From the NCBI GenBank assembly GCA_963770345.1, contig CAVYPH010000013.1:140280-204279 (forward strand): a stretch of 64,000 nt of DNA, written 5' to 3'. The DNA is from Bryobacteraceae bacterium (GTDB lineage: Bacteria; Acidobacteriota; Terriglobia; Bryobacterales; Bryobacteraceae). Positions 4,223 through 13,083 of the stretch are shown one piece after another; within the stretch, counting starts at the first letter, position 1, and every line of letters starts with the position of its first letter. The notes beneath the pieces were generated by a model. The model saw nothing but the letters and a program-made list of their open reading frames with translations, was not told where the DNA came from and ran no database searches. The position numbers and the translations under genes were made by a program.

Positions 4223-4729
4223 ATGTTCTGTCCTGCTTGCGGTCAAGCGAATGTCGATCAAGCGAAGTTTTGCACTGGATGCGGCAACAATCTGACGCAG
4301 TATCAGGCCGTATTTGCGCCCCCCGCTGCTGCCCCTCCGCAGCCGGAGCCCGTACCGGAACGTAAGCCGGCCGTAGATCCGTTCGGTAATCCGATCAATA
4401 CTCCGGGCGCTGTACCGGTTCCGCCGCCTGCTTCAACCCCGGTGCCGCCATTACCAATATATTCAACGCCGGCGCCTTCAGCGCCGCCTCCAACACCATT
4501 GCCTCCAACCATGGAGCAGCTAATTTCCTCTGCCCCACCCCCTCCACCCGTCTCCTCAATTCCAGTTGCGCCGCCTGCGGTTTTTCAAGCGCCCGTCCCT
4601 GTTGCAGCCAAATCGGCAGGCATCGTTGGTCTTCTCGTCTGGCTCCTGCTCGGCATCGCCGCCGGCGGTGGCGGCGCATACCTGGTTATCCACGAAAAAG
4701 CCGCCTCGGCGTCGGCTCCTTCACATTAA
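4223..4729 (+). CDS. Zinc-ribbon protein with Pro-rich linker and C-terminal TM anchor
   Basis: MFCPACGQANVDQAKFCTGCGNNL (CxxC..CxxC zinc ribbon), then a long P/A-rich segment, then the hydrophobic helix GIVGLLVWLLLGIAAGGGGAYLVI. Confidence 0.6.
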   Translation: MFCPACGQANVDQAKFCTGCGNNLTQYQAVFAPPAAAPPQPEPVPERKPAVDPFGNPINTPGAVPVPPPASTPVPPLPIYSTPAPSAPPPTPLPPTMEQLISSAPPPPPVSSIPVAPPAVFQAPVPVAAKSAGIVGLLVWLLLGIAAGGGGAYLVIHEKAASASAPSH

Positions 4730-4837
4730 AATCATTTAACAAACGGAATAATAGCATCCGAAGCCTGGATGTGAGAGGTAGTATCACCAGAGGGCCGACA
4801 ATTCGGCTAATTCTGTTCTGTAAAGAGGACTCTAAAC

Positions 4838-5077
4838 ATGAATCGACGAAAGTTCGGTATGGCACTTGGAAGCGCTGTAGCGGGTTTGGCCGCGGCGGCA
4901 AAACTGATGGCTGACGACGCCCCACCCAAGAAAGTGAAGGCTGCGAAGCACGATTGCAAGGGTAACAATGCTTGCAAGGGTCAGGGCGGCTGCAAGACCG
5001 GTGACAACGGTTGCAAAGGCAAGAACTCCTGCAAAGGCAAGGGTGGTTGCGCGGTTCCTCCGAAAAAAGATAAGTAA
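4838..5077 (+). CDS. bufA: Secreted 6-Cys Lys/Gly-rich peptide; bufferin-like (6/12-Cys type) RiPP precursor
   Basis: AAGAGGA Shine-Dalgarno lies upstream of the ATG. Signal peptide MNRRKFGMALGSAVAGLAAAAKLMA has an RRxF motif. Core is DDAPPKKVKAAKHDCKGNNACKGQGGCKTGDNGCKGKNSCKGKGGCAVPPKKDK. The gene lies immediately upstream of DoxX, DUF692 and DUF2063 genes. Confidence 0.7.
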   Translation: MNRRKFGMALGSAVAGLAAAAKLMADDAPPKKVKAAKHDCKGNNACKGQGGCKTGDNGCKGKNSCKGKGGCAVPPKKDK

Positions 5078-5104
5078 GAGGGGCTGTTGTAGTTTCCAGA
5101 TTAT

Positions 5105-5142
5105 TCTTTGTTGCGGGTCTTTCCTGGCCCGCAACAAAGAAG
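5105..5142 (+). promoter_or_regulatory. Intercistronic stem-loop after the precursor gene (possible attenuator, partial terminator or mRNA stabiliser)
   Basis: Perfect inverted repeat ctttgttgcggg (5107-5118) / cccgcaacaaag (5129-5140). It extends by 2 A-T pairs and has a 10-nt loop. It lies 28 nt after the precursor stop and 19 nt before the DoxX start. There is no clear U-tract. Confidence 0.5.
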
Positions 5143-5160
5143 CATTAACGTCTATTTCCC

Positions 5161-5616
5161 ATGCTCGAATCTCTCTTGCGGCGGAGCTCCGCCATCGCGG
5201 CCGCGCTAGCCTTCCTCCCTCCTCTTCTCACGCGGTTGGTGATCGGCCAGGCGTTTCATCTCACCGGTCACGGTAAGCTGGTAAACTTTGATCGCACGGT
5301 CGATTTCTTCACTAGCCTGGGCATCCCGTTTCCCCACGCAAACGCCGCGTTCATAGCGAGTCTGGAGTTTGTGGGCGGTCTCTGTTTGATGCTGGGTCTC
5401 GGCACGCGCATTTTCGCCGGGCTTCTGTCGTGCAGCATGATCGTTGCGTTGATGACAGCCGACAAAGCCGATTTCGTGTCGAAATTCTGGTCGGCGATCA
5501 CCGACGTCACATCGTTCGTGTACCTGTTATTCTTAATTTGGCTGGTGGTGTATGGCCCCGGCCCGGTCAGTTTGGACGCGCTCATTGGAAGATGGTACCG
5601 GGCGCGGCGTAAATAG
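5161..5616 (+). CDS. DoxX family membrane protein (BufD-like)
   Basis: Four predicted TM helices with DoxX-like sequence: RLVIGQAFHLTGHGKLVNFDRTVDFFTSLGIPFPHANAAFIASLEFVGGLCLMLGLGTR. Confidence 0.75.
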   Translation: MLESLLRRSSAIAAALAFLPPLLTRLVIGQAFHLTGHGKLVNFDRTVDFFTSLGIPFPHANAAFIASLEFVGGLCLMLGLGTRIFAGLLSCSMIVALMTADKADFVSKFWSAITDVTSFVYLLFLIWLVVYGPGPVSLDALIGRWYRARRK

Positions 5617-5628
5617 GAGTTCCGGCTG

Positions 5629-6498
5629 ATGGCAAACCGTTGGGGATATCCGGATTTAGGATTTGGAATCGGATTACGAACCCCGCACTTCAATCACATC
5701 CTGGAAAATCATCCGCCTATCGATTGGTTCGAGATCCTGTCAGAGAATTACATGGACACGAGCGGGCGTCCGTTGTGGGTACTCGACCAGATCGCCGAGC
5801 GCTATCCCGTAGTGCTGCACGGCGTGTCCATGTCGATTGGCAGCACCGATCCACTCGACTTCGAATATTTGCGCAAGCTGAAAGAACTGGCCAAGCGCAT
5901 CAACGCGCGGTGGATTTCCGACCATCTTTGCTGGACCGGCGTAAACGGCCTCAATGTTCACGATCTGCTGCCGATGCCTTACACGGATGAATCTCTCCGG
6001 TACACCATCGAGCGGGTTCGGCAGGTGCAGGATTATCTCGAGCGCCCGATTGCGTTGGAGAATGCTTCCACTTATCTCGAGTTCAGCGCATCTTCCTGGG
6101 CGGAGTCGGATTTCATCGCAACATTGTCGCAGGAGGCCAACAGCGGCATCCTGCTCGACGTAAACAACGTGTACGTCAGCTCGTTCAATCACGGCTTCGA
6201 TGCGAAAGCGTACATCGATAAAATTCCCGGCGATCGAGTTATTCAGATCCATCTCGCCGGCCACACGCACAAAGGTACGCACATCCTGGATACGCACAGC
6301 GACTACGTGATCGACACGGTTTGGGACCTCTATCGCCACGCTTATCAGCGAATGGGCGGGGTATCGACGCTGCTCGAATGGGACGCGTCCATTCCGAGTT
6401 TCGAAATTGTTCATGCCGAAGCTCTAAAGGCGCGGGAGCATCGCCAGAAGGCCGAAGCCGAGGCGCGAGTAGAAGAGGTTGCGTCGTATGCGGACTGA
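5629..6498 (+). CDS. bufB: DUF692 family multinuclear non-heme iron oxidase (MNIO; BufB/MbnB-like)
   Basis: AGGAG lies upstream of the ATG. LGFGIGLRTPHF..IDWFEILSENYM..VVLHGVSMSIGS..ISDHLCWTG..IALENASTYL..GILLDVNNVYVS..IQIHLAGHT..ILDTHSDYV..STLLEWD is the characteristic DUF692 TIM-barrel motif set. Confidence 0.85.
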   Translation: MANRWGYPDLGFGIGLRTPHFNHILENHPPIDWFEILSENYMDTSGRPLWVLDQIAERYPVVLHGVSMSIGSTDPLDFEYLRKLKELAKRINARWISDHLCWTGVNGLNVHDLLPMPYTDESLRYTIERVRQVQDYLERPIALENASTYLEFSASSWAESDFIATLSQEANSGILLDVNNVYVSSFNHGFDAKAYIDKIPGDRVIQIHLAGHTHKGTHILDTHSDYVIDTVWDLYRHAYQRMGGVSTLLEWDASIPSFEIVHAEALKAREHRQKAEAEARVEEVASYAD

Positions 6499-7288
6499 TC
6501 TCGCCGGCATTCAGAGCTGGATGCAGGCCGTTATTGTGTCTGATCCGGAATCCGAAATTCCTGAACAGGAAGCGCGGGAACTGGTGCTTCCATCGAACAC
6601 GCTCTCACCGATGGAACGCGTTGACATCTATCGCAGCATGTATCTGTCGCGAATGGTGGAAGCGCTGGAAATCGATTATCCGGGTTTGGCGCAGTATCTT
6701 GGAACCGAAGGTTTCTATAATCTGGTTTCGCGGTACGTGGATGCATATCCGTCGCGAAGCTACACGTTGAATCGGCTAGGCGACCGCCTCCCTGATTTCA
6801 TCGCCACCCTGAACGACGTCAAGCGAAGGGATTTTCTGCACGACCTGGCCCGGCTGGAATCAGCTTTGAACGTGGCCTTCGACGCCGAGGAGGCACCACC
6901 GCTCACGGTGGAGGCCATCGCCGCGGTGCCGCAGGACGCCTGGGAAAATGCGCGCATGAAGCCGATTGCCGCGCTCCATTTGCTGGAATTCCAATATCCG
7001 GTGAGTGAGTATCTTGGCTCAGTGTTGGACGAAGCACCGGCGCCCAGCACGAGAAAAAAGCGCACGTGGGTGGCTGCTTACCGCAAAGATTACGGCTTGC
7101 GGCGGCTGGATCTGAGTCTTCCCGAATATGAACTGCTAAGCGACTTGGTGGCCCAGAAAACGGTAGGAGAGGCGATCATAGCCGCCTGCACTCGCAAGGG
7201 AAAGGCCAGAGCGAAGGAAAGCGATTTGTTCGCCTGGTTTCAAAATTGGATGGCGCGAGGGTTGTTCCAGAAAGTGGAAATTTCCTAG
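6479..7288 (+). CDS. bufC: DUF2063 domain protein (BufC-like MNIO partner)
   Basis: Overlaps the MNIO gene by 20 nt. LAGIQSWMQAVIV...ERVDIYRSMYLSRMVEALEIDYPGLAQYLG...FYNLVSRYVDAYPSRSYTLNRLGDRLPDFI is typical of DUF2063 N-terminal domains. Confidence 0.75.
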   Translation: MRRMRTDLAGIQSWMQAVIVSDPESEIPEQEARELVLPSNTLSPMERVDIYRSMYLSRMVEALEIDYPGLAQYLGTEGFYNLVSRYVDAYPSRSYTLNRLGDRLPDFIATLNDVKRRDFLHDLARLESALNVAFDAEEAPPLTVEAIAAVPQDAWENARMKPIAALHLLEFQYPVSEYLGSVLDEAPAPSTRKKRTWVAAYRKDYGLRRLDLSLPEYELLSDLVAQKTVGEAIIAACTRKGKARAKESDLFAWFQNWMARGLFQKVEIS

Positions 7289-11946: not shown

Positions 11947-13083
11947 ATGCAGACCCGCCGCGAATTTCTCTCGTCTGCCGCGGCGGCAGCCGCTTTCCCG
12001 GTGGCCTTGTCGCAGAAAGCGTCCGCCGCCCCGGACGACGCCACCGGCGAATGGCGGAATAAGCAACCGGGCATGGCTTATCGCAAGCTCGGCCGCACCG
12101 GATTTTATGTGTCCGAGATCGTGATGGGCGGCAACACTATCGCGCCGGATAATTACAAACACGTGCTGTCCGCGCTCGACCGTGGACTGAACTATCTGGA
12201 CACAGCCCCGGCGTACGGCGAAGGCAAGAGCGAACAGGGATATGCGCAGGTGCTCAAAGAGCGGCCGCGCGATCAGTTTTTCCTCAACACGAAGATCAGT
12301 ATCTGGGACACCAACCGGGCGCAGATTTATCGCAGCATCTTCGACGGACTACCAGGCGCGGAGCAGGACCGCTTACGCTCTAAAACACAAGACGAGATCG
12401 ACGAAAGCAAGGTGGCGCGGCCCGATTATTTCGTTGGCTACTTCGAGGGCCAGCGCCAGGAATTGGAAGACGCGACGCTGGCCAATGTGATGGAGAAAGA
12501 GTTCGGACGCCAGATCAACCGCGCCACGAACTACAAGGACATTATTATCAGGTCGCTCGACCAGAGCCTGAAGCGGCTTGGTACCGACCACGTGGATCTG
12601 ATGACCTGTCCGCATGGCGCCAACACGCCTTATGAGCTGAAGAACTACCCGGAGATTTTTGAGGCGTTCGAGATTCTTAAGAAGGCGGGCAAAGTCCGCC
12701 ACCTGAGTGTTTCGGCGCATACCGATCCGGCCGGCGTCATCAATGCGGCGATCGGCACCGGGATGTATTCCGCCTGCATGGTGGCCTACAACGTTGTGAA
12801 CGCGAATTACGTTCAGAACGCGATTGCTCGTGCGAACAAGAGCGATATGGGCGTGATCGCCATGAAAGCGGCGCGGCCAGTATTTCCTGGACCGGGTGGC
12901 GGAGAGCCGAATCCCGCGGGCTTGAAGAGGCTGGACGCGGAGGTTCCAGGGCCACTGAGCGTCCCGAAGAAGGCTTATCTCTGGGCGCTAAAAAATCCGA
13001 ACTTGACGGCCGTGATTTCAGAAATGGTGAATCAGAAATTAGTCGACGAGAACATGCCGCTAGCGGCGCCGAAACAGCAGTAG
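11947..13083 (+). CDS. Aldo/keto reductase with twin-arginine signal
   Basis: MQTRREFLSSAAAAAAFPVALS is a Tat-like signal. YRKLGRTGFYVSEIVMGG..LDRGLNYLDTAPAYGEGKSE is the AKR signature. Confidence 0.8.
   Translation: MQTRREFLSSAAAAAAFPVALSQKASAAPDDATGEWRNKQPGMAYRKLGRTGFYVSEIVMGGNTIAPDNYKHVLSALDRGLNYLDTAPAYGEGKSEQGYAQVLKERPRDQFFLNTKISIWDTNRAQIYRSIFDGLPGAEQDRLRSKTQDEIDESKVARPDYFVGYFEGQRQELEDATLANVMEKEFGRQINRATNYKDIIIRSLDQSLKRLGTDHVDLMTCPHGANTPYELKNYPEIFEAFEILKKAGKVRHLSVSAHTDPAGVINAAIGTGMYSACMVAYNVVNANYVQNAIARANKSDMGVIAMKAARPVFPGPGGGEPNPAGLKRLDAEVPGPLSVPKKAYLWALKNPNLTAVISEMVNQKLVDENMPLAAPKQQ

What the first reader, a model, noticed from the sequence alone, without database searches (positions are those of the whole stretch)
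4838..5077. Precursor peptide: Tat-like signal and a quasi-periodic Cys-Lys-Gly core built from ~18-nt tandem units
The leader MNRRKFGMALGSAVAGLAAAAKLMA has an RRxF twin-arginine motif and an A-x-A-like cleavage site. By my count the 54-aa remainder has 6 Cys, 14 Lys, 10 Gly and no aromatic residues. Cys spacing is C-x5-C-x5-C-x6-C-x5-C-x5-C, and every Cys is followed by Lys. At the DNA level, 4955-5050 reads as five consecutive units that each start tgcaa(g/a). This suggests the core grew by internal tandem duplication. A Tat-type signal on a peptide that must be modified by cytoplasmic iron enzymes before export would be mechanistically sensible. I do not know it to be characterised for this precursor type.
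Basis: seen in the sequence. Interest (0 to 1): 0.6.

Follow-up and report, generated by a model that had tools for sequence, protein, structure and literature searches.

The report
Bufferin copper-peptide precursor, Tat-like signal
This small gene encodes the precursor of a known kind of exported, enzyme-modified copper-binding peptide (a Buf2 bufferin), and its export signal carries a strictly conserved twin-arginine motif, which suggests export by the Tat route, whereas the papers I could search mention only Sec.

Summary
One detail is wrong: only 5 of the 6 Cys are followed by Lys.

It is a member of the published Buf2 / BUF_6/12Cys ("Cys-Lys captophorin", NCBIfam BufA2) family of RiPP metallophore precursors. 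It sits next to doxX, bufB (MNIO) and bufC (DUF2063). The Cys-Lys-Gly lattice is the invariant signature of this family, which has more than 5000 relatives.

The lattice is not a product of recent 18-nt duplications:
- Tandem Repeats Finder finds nothing.
- Synonymous sites show no excess similarity between units.
- Copy number varies only by whole 6-Cys domains (6 versus 12 Cys).

The twin-arginine reading is well supported by sequence. RRxF is present in 118 of the 120 nearest relatives and in about 35% of diverse representatives. It marks one deep clade of the partner enzyme. The genome has tatA and tatC and puts the same kind of leader on classic Tat cargo.

None of the seven bufferin/MNIO/captophorin papers I searched mentions Tat.

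This scan has already reported Tat-like bufferin precursors in at least seven other genomes.

Specific to this locus are the rare A-doxX-B-C gene order, a conserved palindrome upstream and a hairpin after the gene.

The parts
4725..4740 (.). 16-bp palindrome ATTAA-N6-TTAAC, a candidate operator or promoter element, 98 nt upstream of the bufA2 ATG. It overlaps the stop codon of the upstream ORF.
   Evidence: It is the only match to RTTAA-N6-TTAAY in the 64-kb window (0.05 expected). There are 6 matches in 589 kb of related loci, and all lie 115-130 nt upstream of bufA2 in Bryobacteraceae/Terriglobia MAGs. The whole 8-Mb genome has 7 matches. Its function is inferred only.
4823..4829 (+). Shine-Dalgarno-like AAGAGGA
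   Evidence: Read from the sequence. Related loci have GGAGG at the same distance from the start.
4838..5077 (+). bufA2: 79-aa Buf2-type bufferin precursor (stop codon included)
   Evidence: ORF. NCBIfam NF050166 BufA2, E = 1.6e-13, 50.6 bits, against a cut-off of 60. 5183 homologues at E <= 1e-3. Family alignment A1.
4838..4912 (+). Predicted signal peptide, residues 1-25: n-region MNRRKF, h-region GMALGSAVAGLAAAA, c-region KLMA
   Evidence: Sequence features. The cleavage position is inferred from the [LAV]-x-[AG]|[DEQ] pattern in relatives. No predictor was available.
4844..4855 (+). Twin-arginine motif R3-R4-K5-F6
   Evidence: RRxF is present in 118 of the 120 nearest homologues and in 53 of 150 representatives clustered at 50% identity. 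In 42 RRxF genes the two Arg use 5 and 6 synonymous codons.
4913..5074 (+). Predicted 54-aa core peptide
   Evidence: The remainder after the predicted cleavage. Its composition was checked by hand against the translation.
4955..5050 (+). Six-Cys lattice (C40, C46, C52, C59, C65, C71), made of two C-x-G-x-N-x-C-K-G-x-G-G-C modules joined by KTGDNG
   Evidence: By homology with Caulobacter Buf2, C40 and C71 would form a disulfide and the four central Cys would become 5-thiooxazoles (PMC11626156). This is inferred.
5104..5141 (+). Perfect 16-bp stem-loop with no U-tract between bufA2 and doxX. It is probably a leaky terminator or 3' stabiliser of the bufA2 transcript.
   Evidence: The 91-nt stretch 5075-5165 that contains it folds at -33.4 kcal/mol, z = -4.5. 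The stretch after bufA2 folds better than shuffles in 64 loci (median z = -2.8). Stand-alone bufA2 genes end in terminator-like hairpins.
5161..5616 (+). doxX (BufD/HvfX-like membrane protein)
   Evidence: Pfam DoxX, 65 bits. NCBIfam HvfX, 64.9 bits, below its cut-off of 80.
5629..6498 (+). bufB, the MNIO (DUF692) bufferin maturase
   Evidence: NF050167 MNIO_BufB, 357 bits, above its cut-off of 310. Pfam PF05114, 362 bits. The closest solved structure is 3BWW.
6479..7288 (+). bufC, the DUF2063 partner protein. It overlaps bufB by 20 nt.
   Evidence: Pfam DUF2063, 62 bits. NCBIfam HvfC, 42 bits, below its cut-off.

Best explanation
The ORF encodes BufA2, the precursor of a Buf2-type bufferin (BUF_6/12Cys, the 'Cys-Lys captophorin' group).

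**Inferred by homology with Caulobacter vibrioides Buf2**
- In the cytoplasm, the neighbouring MNIO enzyme BufB and its DUF2063 partner BufC oxidise the four central cysteines (C46, C52, C59, C65) to 5-thiooxazoles.
- The outer pair (C40, C71) forms a disulfide.
- The signal peptide is cut off near A25|D26.
- The roughly 54-residue Lys/Gly-rich product stays in the periplasm and sequesters excess copper.

**Inferred from sequence conservation**
- This precursor, and the whole clade it belongs to, is targeted to the Tat translocase by its N-R-R-K-F leader. The family literature describes the Sec route.
- Because Tat export is post-translational, it would give the cytoplasmic enzymes time to act.

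**Other points**
- The regular Cys-Lys-Gly pattern is the substrate and metal-site lattice of the family. The Lys after Cys is a published recognition feature for this enzyme group. It is not a trace of recent DNA duplication.
- In this lineage bufA2 looks like a self-contained unit: palindrome, leader, ORF and hairpin. Here it lies directly upstream of doxX-bufB-bufC.
For: **Family identity**
- NF050166 BufA2 hit, E = 1.6e-13.
- BufB scores above its curated cut-off, and DUF2063 and DoxX are adjacent.
- All family-invariant residues are present.
- There are 5183 homologues, many of them followed by MNIO and DUF2063 genes.

**Chemistry and function, from the literature**
- PMC11626156 and PMC12452194.
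- The Lys after Cys is modelled to contact BufB2 Asp251 in preprint 10.1101/2025.11.18.689057.

**Tat reading**
- RRxF is present in 118 of the 120 nearest relatives. Of the two exceptions, one is an N-terminally truncated gene call and the other has a lipoprotein-type leader.
- In the RRxF set, the residue between RR and F and the residue before RR vary freely. Lys sits two residues after F in 63 of 170 sequences, as in the S-R-R-x-F-L-K consensus.
- In 42 RRxF genes the two Arg use 5 and 6 synonymous codons.
- The RRxF class forms one deep clade of the BufB tree (26 of 31 rows). The other clade has none in 33 rows.
- tatC and two tatA genes are present.
- The same M-x-RR-x-F leaders in this genome head molybdoenzymes, a Gfo/Idh/MocA oxidoreductase, a sulfatase and an aldo/keto reductase.

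**Against recent duplication**
-.
Against: **Against Tat export**
- No signal-peptide or Tat predictor could be run.
- Profile models of Tat signals gave no hit.
- The residue after Phe is Gly here, and T/A/G/N in relatives, not the hydrophobic residue of the consensus.
- The h-region is conserved and equally hydrophobic in RRxF and non-RR relatives (1.97 versus 1.96).
- A basic residue in the c-region is not clearly enriched in the RRxF class (46% versus 36%).
- Within the RRxF clade, a few members have switched to Lys-type or lipoprotein leaders, so the routes may be interchangeable.
- For the only bufferin tested, BufA1, the signal peptide exports a reporter and was interpreted as Sec.

**Other weaknesses**
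- The NF050166 score is below the curated cut-off. Ten environmental relatives of both leader types also fall below it, at 41-48 bits.
- The AlphaFold model was uninformative (pLDDT 54).
Confidence: 0.6

Rival explanations
1. The family identity and chemistry are the same, but the peptide is exported by Sec, as published for bufferins. On this view the twin arginines are just the n-region's positive charge in a high-GC lineage, or the leader can use both routes.
For: - The literature describes Sec signal peptides for the family, using SignalP 6.
- The h-region is shared and equally hydrophobic in both leader classes.
- No Tat-profile hit.
- The position after Phe is not hydrophobic.
- Leader type switched a few times inside the clade.
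- A small, Lys-rich, probably unstructured peptide (pLDDT 54) has no obvious need for Tat.
Against: - A merely positive n-region would tolerate Lys. Yet neither Arg is replaced in any of the 118 nearest relatives that keep this kind of leader, and Phe sits at a fixed offset. In 42 RRxF genes the Arg codons are saturated at synonymous sites.
- The sister class of the same family uses Lys-rich n-regions.
- The genome's RRxF leaders sit on typical cofactor-bearing Tat cargo.
Confidence: 0.3
2. RRxF, and the conserved A-A-V-A-G-L-x-A-G stretch after it, serve mainly as a leader element recognised by the BufC RRE-like domain or another maturation factor, not as a translocase signal.
For: - The h-region is unusually conserved for a signal peptide (G16 in at least 90% of sequences).
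- The bufferin authors leave open a leader function that overlaps the signal peptide.
Against: - The signal peptide was dispensable for modification of BufA1.
- Stand-alone precursors far from any enzyme gene keep RRxF.
- Non-RR relatives inside the same enzyme clade exist.
Confidence: 0.05
3. The core arose recently by slippage or tandem duplication of ~18-nt units, so that unit number varies between strains.
For: Five consecutive units start TGCAA(G/A).
Against: - No TRF array.
- No excess identity at synonymous sites (p = 0.13 and 0.79).
- The lattice is invariant across phyla.
- Relatives have 2 or 4 three-Cys modules (158 and 69 of 267). The odd counts I inspected were mostly degenerate modules missed by the pattern.
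Confidence: 0.03

Closest known systems
Bufferin 2 (BufA2-BufB2-BufC2, CCNA_03001-02999) of Caulobacter vibrioides; the BUF_6/12Cys = Buf2 family; NCBIfam NF050166 (PMC11626156, PMC12452194)
   Same: - A small exported precursor with six conserved Cys in the same lattice.
- Adjacent MNIO and DUF2063 genes.
- By homology, four thiooxazoles plus one disulfide, and periplasmic copper binding.
   Different: - The leader has an invariant RRxF motif, whereas the Caulobacter signal is predicted Sec.
- doxX is present and sits between the precursor and bufB. The Caulobacter buf2 operon has no doxX, and the usual order is A-B-C(-D).
- The score is below the curated NCBIfam cut-off.
- Nothing has been tested experimentally here.
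Bufferin 1 (BufA1, DUF2282) bufABCD operon of C. vibrioides
   Same: - The same enzyme pair, an optional DoxX, a signal-peptide-bearing precursor and a copper-stress role.
   Different: - Four Cys in a folded DUF2282 domain, with no Cys-Lys lattice.
- Sec export was supported by a reporter fusion.
- Regulated by SigF/NrsF.
Lys-Cys captophorins: oxazolin (HvfA), fontiphorin (FonA), EGKCG repeats (PMC11252979; 10.1101/2025.11.18.689057)
   Same: - MNIO plus a DUF2063-type partner acting on Cys in short repeated motifs.
- The products bind copper.
   Different: - The motif is E-G-K-C-G, with Lys before Cys.
- Repeat number is truly variable.
- They fall in a different precursor cluster and a different MNIO subgroup.
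Classical Tat substrates with S/T-R-R-x-F-L-K leaders (established knowledge: cofactor enzymes, and the copper oxidase CueO in E. coli)
   Same: - RRxF early in the n-region, a moderately hydrophobic h-region and a basic residue before the cleavage site.
- The Tat genes are present.
   Different: - The cargo is a 54-residue peptide with no predicted fold.
- The Leu of the consensus is Gly.
- Tat dependence is untested.

Membership tests
Buf2 / BUF_6/12Cys bufferin precursors (NCBIfam NF050166 BufA2) | Match to the family profile at the curated score | tested here: inconclusive
   E = 1.6e-13, but 50.6 bits against a cut-off of 60. Ten environmental relatives of both leader types score 41-48 bits, so the cut-off excludes these lineages as a whole.
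Buf2 / BUF_6/12Cys bufferin precursors (NCBIfam NF050166 BufA2) | Six conserved Cys with the family's spacing and flanking Gly/Asn/Lys | tested here: met
   C40, G42, N44, C46, G48, G51, C52, C59, K62, C65, G69, G70 and C71 are invariant in 38 diverse members, including this one.
Buf2 / BUF_6/12Cys bufferin precursors (NCBIfam NF050166 BufA2) | N-terminal signal peptide | tested here: met
   Charged n-region, 15-residue hydrophobic stretch and L-M-A|DD site, found by inspection and hydropathy. No predictor was available.
Buf2 / BUF_6/12Cys bufferin precursors (NCBIfam NF050166 BufA2) | Genetic association with a BufB-type MNIO and a DUF2063 partner | tested here: met
   NF050167 scores 357 bits against a cut-off of 310. 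DUF2063 scores 62 bits. Both lie within 1.7 kb on the same strand.
Buf2 / BUF_6/12Cys bufferin precursors (NCBIfam NF050166 BufA2) | Cys converted to 5-thiooxazole; copper binding | not testable with these tools
   Needs mass spectrometry, UV absorbance and metal titration.
Tat (twin-arginine) export substrates | Consensus S/T-R-R-x-F-L-K in the n-region | tested here: inconclusive
   N-R-R-K-F-G-M: the RRxF part is met and is conserved across the clade. The Leu position is Gly. A Lys two residues after Phe occurs in 63 of 170 relatives but not here.
Tat (twin-arginine) export substrates | Tat translocase encoded in the genome | tested here: met
   tatC scores 182.7 bits. Two tatA genes score 65.6 and 54.6 bits, one of them next to tatC.
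Tat (twin-arginine) export substrates | Recognition by Tat-signal profile models | tested here: not met
   Neither the Pfam nor the NCBIfam scan at E <= 10 listed a generic Tat-signal model. The only weak hits were TIGR02811 (E = 0.12) and, for a relative, PF10399 (E = 0.53). Such short profiles are insensitive.
Tat (twin-arginine) export substrates | Export that depends on tatC and on the RR pair | not testable with these tools
   This is an experiment.
Sec-type bufferin leaders as published | Lys-rich n-region without a twin-arginine motif | tested here: not met
   This protein and 118 of its 120 nearest relatives have RRxF. The Lys-type leader is found in the sister clade.

The most novel reading that the evidence does not exclude
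A whole clade of Buf2 bufferins is exported by Tat rather than Sec. The clade is found in Acidobacteriota, some Gammaproteobacteria and Planctomycetota. The peptide would then leave the cytoplasm only after its cysteines have been turned into thiooxazoles, and possibly already folded or carrying Cu(I). As far as I could find, this would be the first RiPP class reported to use the Tat route. It would also explain how a signal-bearing precursor waits for its cytoplasmic enzymes.
Probability: 0.45. Interest if true: 0.6.

Novelty: new variant of a known kind. Interest (0 to 1): 0.4.

Why it matters
Bufferins are the largest known group of MNIO-modified peptides and a widespread defence against copper stress. 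One open point in that field is how a precursor with a general export signal stays in the cytoplasm long enough to be modified.

A clade-wide twin-arginine leader offers a concrete answer that is easy to test: RR->KK substitution, tat mutants, and reporter fusions in E. coli. If it holds, it would add Tat to the export routes used by RiPPs.

There is also a practical point. These environmental precursors fall below the curated NCBIfam cut-off and are annotated as hypothetical proteins, so they are under-counted.

The peptide family itself, its Cys lattice and the 6/12-Cys variation are already published.

Tried and rejected
- **Tandem Repeats Finder** on 4700-5200 found no array.
- **Synonymous-codon resampling** showed no DNA-level signal of duplication.
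- **Tat-signal profile models** in NCBIfam and Pfam at E <= 10 gave no useful hit.
- **AlphaFold2** with a 38-sequence alignment gave pLDDT 54 and pTM 0.21. That is too poor to compare folds, so I ran no fold search.
- **A basic 'Sec-avoidance' residue in the c-region** is not clearly enriched in the RRxF class (46% versus 36%), so I dropped it as an argument.
- **h-region hydrophobicity** does not separate the two leader classes.
- **The link between the RRxF leader and absence of doxX** looked strong in raw counts. On the BufB tree it rests on one deep split and only one independent contrast on well-supported branches, so I make no co-evolution claim.
- **Mapping the published BufB2 Asp251 / FonB Phe250 position** onto this BufB through the 3BWW alignment failed, because the numbering could not be matched.
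- **A regulon for the upstream palindrome**: the six other genome copies have no coherent neighbouring genes.
- **Rfam** found nothing in 4500-5300.

Full report
**Observation**

The ORF 4838-5077 (+) exists and translates to 79 residues. A Shine-Dalgarno-like AAGAGGA lies 8-9 nt upstream. It has 6 Cys, 14 Lys, 10 Gly and no F/W/Y, and the Cys spacing is 5-5-6-5-5. Five units begin TGCAA(G/A). One detail is wrong: the last Cys is followed by Ala, so five of six Cys are followed by Lys.

**What it is**

The protein matches NCBIfam NF050166, 'BufA2 family periplasmic bufferin-type metallophore'. The match is E = 1.6e-13 and 50.6 bits, below the curated cut-off of 60. Three genes follow on the same strand:
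- a DoxX protein (5161-5616);
- an MNIO enzyme that passes the BufB equivalog cut-off (NF050167, 357 bits against 310; 5629-6498);
- a DUF2063 protein that overlaps it by 20 nt (6479-7288).

This is the gene set of a bufferin cluster as described by Leprevost et al. 2024 (PMC11626156) and in the 2025 survey (PMC12452194). In Caulobacter vibrioides Buf2, the outer two of six Cys stay unmodified and probably form a disulfide. The four central Cys each lose 4 Da, and the product absorbs near 305 nm. For Buf1 this modification was shown to be a Cys-derived 5-thiooxazole that binds copper, and both operons improve growth under copper stress. A 2025 preprint (10.1101/2025.11.18.689057) calls the same precursors the 'Cys-Lys' group of captophorins. 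It models the Lys after Cys as contacting an Asp of the enzyme.

**Conservation**

A search of 5.8 billion proteins gave 5183 homologues at E <= 1e-3. A search of 1.84 billion representatives gave 1588. In an alignment of 38 diverse six-Cys members, the positions C40, G42, N44, C46, G48, G51, C52, C59, K62, C65, G69, G70 and C71 are invariant. The nearest named relatives are MAGs of Bryobacteraceae and other Terriglobia. The window's genome is 8.0 Mb with 57.8% GC. Ten environmental relatives with either kind of leader also score 41-48 bits against NF050166. The sub-threshold score is therefore a property of these lineages, not a sign of non-membership.

**The duplication idea**

- Tandem Repeats Finder finds no array at score 30.
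- I kept the protein fixed and redrew synonymous codons from the codon usage of neighbouring genes. The five units are then no more alike than expected (0.572 versus 0.542 +/- 0.024, p = 0.13).
- The two 13-codon half-domains are, if anything, less alike than expected (0.718 versus 0.742, p = 0.79).
- The real internal symmetry is C-x-G-x-N-x-C-K-G-x-G-G-C twice, shared by the whole family.
- Among 267 relatives, 158 have two such modules and 69 have four (6 and 12 Cys). The odd counts I inspected were mostly degenerate modules that the pattern missed (sequences).

This agrees with the published statement that 12-Cys forms are duplicated 6-Cys domains. Nothing indicates turnover of 18-nt units.

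**The signal peptide**

This is the part that goes beyond the literature.

- Of the 120 nearest homologues, 118 carry RRxF near the N-terminus. Of the two exceptions, one is an N-terminally truncated gene call and the other has a lipoprotein-type leader.
- In the RRxF set, the residue before RR is N, D, K, T or S. The residue between RR and F is K, E, D, N, Q or S. A Lys follows two positions after Phe in 63 of 170 sequences, as in the S-R-R-x-F-L-K consensus.
- Among 42 RRxF genes in named genomes, the first Arg uses five codons and the second uses all six. The pair is therefore held at the protein level.
- Among 150 representatives clustered at 50% identity, 53 have strict RRxF and 88 have no RR. 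The non-RR leaders are Lys-type or carry a lipobox; about 23 of the 150 have a lipobox.
- On a tree of the partner enzyme BufB from 64 loci, the RRxF class falls in one deep, well-supported clade (26 of 31 rows). The other clade has none among 33 rows. Three changes of leader type suffice to explain the pattern.
- The genome encodes tatC and two tatA genes.
- It uses the same M-x-RR-x-F leaders on molybdopterin enzymes, a Gfo/Idh/MocA oxidoreductase, a sulfatase and an aldo/keto reductase. These are typical Tat cargo by established knowledge.
- Seven papers on bufferins, MNIOs or captophorins do not contain 'Tat' or 'twin-arginine': PMC11626156, PMC12452194 and its held supplements, PMC8692599, PMC13056109, PMC12538549, PMC11252979 and the captophorin preprint. 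This follows from the text look-ups and, for PMC11252979, from the zero-hit searches.

**Limits of the Tat inference**

- I had no SignalP, TatP or TATFIND.
- The scans of the profile libraries listed no generic Tat-signal model.
- The residue after Phe is Gly here and is mostly T/A/G/N in relatives. From memory, the strict TatP pattern asks for a hydrophobic residue there.
- Neither h-region hydrophobicity nor a basic c-region residue distinguishes the two leader classes.
- The h-region itself (A-A-V-A-G-L-x-A-G) is conserved across both classes. That is unusual for a signal peptide and could mean it doubles as a recognition element.

I put Tat dependence at about 0.6, Sec or dual use at about 0.3, and other readings below 0.1.

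**Locus architecture**

- In 80 named loci the usual order is A-B-C or A-B-C-D. Only L011, the sister of this locus on the BufB tree, shares A-doxX-B-C.
- The closest orthologues of the precursor (L008-L010, L012, L013) are stand-alone genes. In three of their genomes (those of L009, L012 and L013), a BufB-grade MNIO lies elsewhere, directly preceded by a doxX very like the window's and with no precursor gene in front. In this lineage doxX-bufB therefore looks like the enzyme unit, and bufA2 is a separate unit that may or may not lie beside it.
- The 16-bp stem at 5104-5141 has counterparts after bufA2 in most loci (64 loci, median z = -2.8 against mononucleotide shuffles). After stand-alone genes, these are terminator-like hairpins with T-tails. 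The window's hairpin lacks a T-tract, so it may be leaky.
- Upstream, the palindrome ATTAA-N6-TTAAC at 4725-4740 is the only such site in the window (0.05 expected). It recurs 115-130 nt upstream of bufA2 in six related loci and nowhere else in 589 kb. It is a candidate operator. I found no coherent regulon.

**Comparison and novelty**

The precursor is a member of a known family, and its composition, lattice and 6/12-Cys variation are published. The variant elements are:
- the clade-wide twin-arginine leader, which I found in no paper;
- the rare gene order;
- the lineage-specific flanking elements.

Earlier follow-ups in this scan reached the same Tat reading for bufferin precursors in at least seven other genomes. 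My figure of about 35% RRxF among diverse representatives matches the 'about a third' noted there. I rate it a new variant of a known kind, of moderate interest.

Noticed in passing
window 4725-4740; L008:1656, L009:3871, L010:3872, L012:3872, L013:3870, L037:3878: The palindrome RTTAA-N6-TTAAY lies 98-130 nt upstream of bufA2 in Bryobacteraceae/Terriglobia loci. It occurs once in the window (0.05 expected), 6 times in 589 kb of related loci (all at this position), and 7 times in the 8-Mb genome. It is a candidate operator of an unknown regulator.
   Followed up: partly
window 5104-5141; 64 related loci: A stable stem-loop follows the precursor gene across the family (median z = -2.8). Stand-alone bufA2 genes end in canonical-looking terminators. 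The window's 16-bp stem has no U-tract.
   Followed up: partly
L090, L091, L092 (genomes of L013, L012, L009): In the nearest relatives, the MNIO gene is directly preceded by a doxX gene very like the window's, with no precursor gene in front. The bufA2 gene lies elsewhere in those genomes. The window's A-doxX-B-C order therefore looks like a precursor unit placed in front of a doxX-bufB unit.
   Followed up: partly
own genome C12:1257010-1257795 (L007): A second, more distant MNIO gene (226 bits to PF05114). It is preceded by a membrane-protein ORF that ends in a Gly/Cys/Ser-rich tail (…GGGCSSSSSCGSSCGGGGGGCGGCGS). That ORF is possibly split by a frameshift, and it resembles the signal-less TIGR04222-type substrates described in PMC12452194.
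   Followed up: no
L008-L013, about 110 nt upstream of stand-alone bufA2 (alignment A2): A conserved 5' leader with a predicted 9-bp hairpin and one compensatory U-G to G-U change. Five close sequences are too few to judge. The window's own leader is different.
   Followed up: partly
family alignment A1, residues 9-20 of the window protein: The hydrophobic core of the signal peptide (A-A-V-A-G-L-x-A-G; G16 in at least 90% of sequences) is conserved in RRxF, Lys-type and lipoprotein-type leaders alike. That is unusual for signal peptides and hints at a second role, such as recognition by the maturation proteins.
   Followed up: no
P0208, P0169, P0254 and others: Some relatives combine RRxF with a lipobox Cys, which would make them predicted Tat-type lipoprotein leaders.
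   Followed up: no
own genome, at least 13 places (e.g. C7:145827, C12:577950): An identical 60-aa ORF, MPVSNLPIRLRMNPRRRFLREALGLAQQIGLVLFQGEGPGQTETF…, is repeated across contigs. It is probably part of a multi-copy mobile or repeated element.
   Followed up: no
window 11947-13083 (+): An aldo/keto reductase (Pfam, 90.6 bits) with a Tat-like leader, MQTRREFLSSAAAAAAFPVALSQKASA. It is one of more than 100 such leaders in this genome.
   Followed up: partly
window 4793-4808 (+): A small terminator-like hairpin with a T-rich tail lies between the palindrome and the bufA2 start. It could end the upstream zinc-ribbon/Pro-rich membrane protein gene (4223-4729), or it could act as an attenuator in the bufA2 leader.
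   Followed up: no
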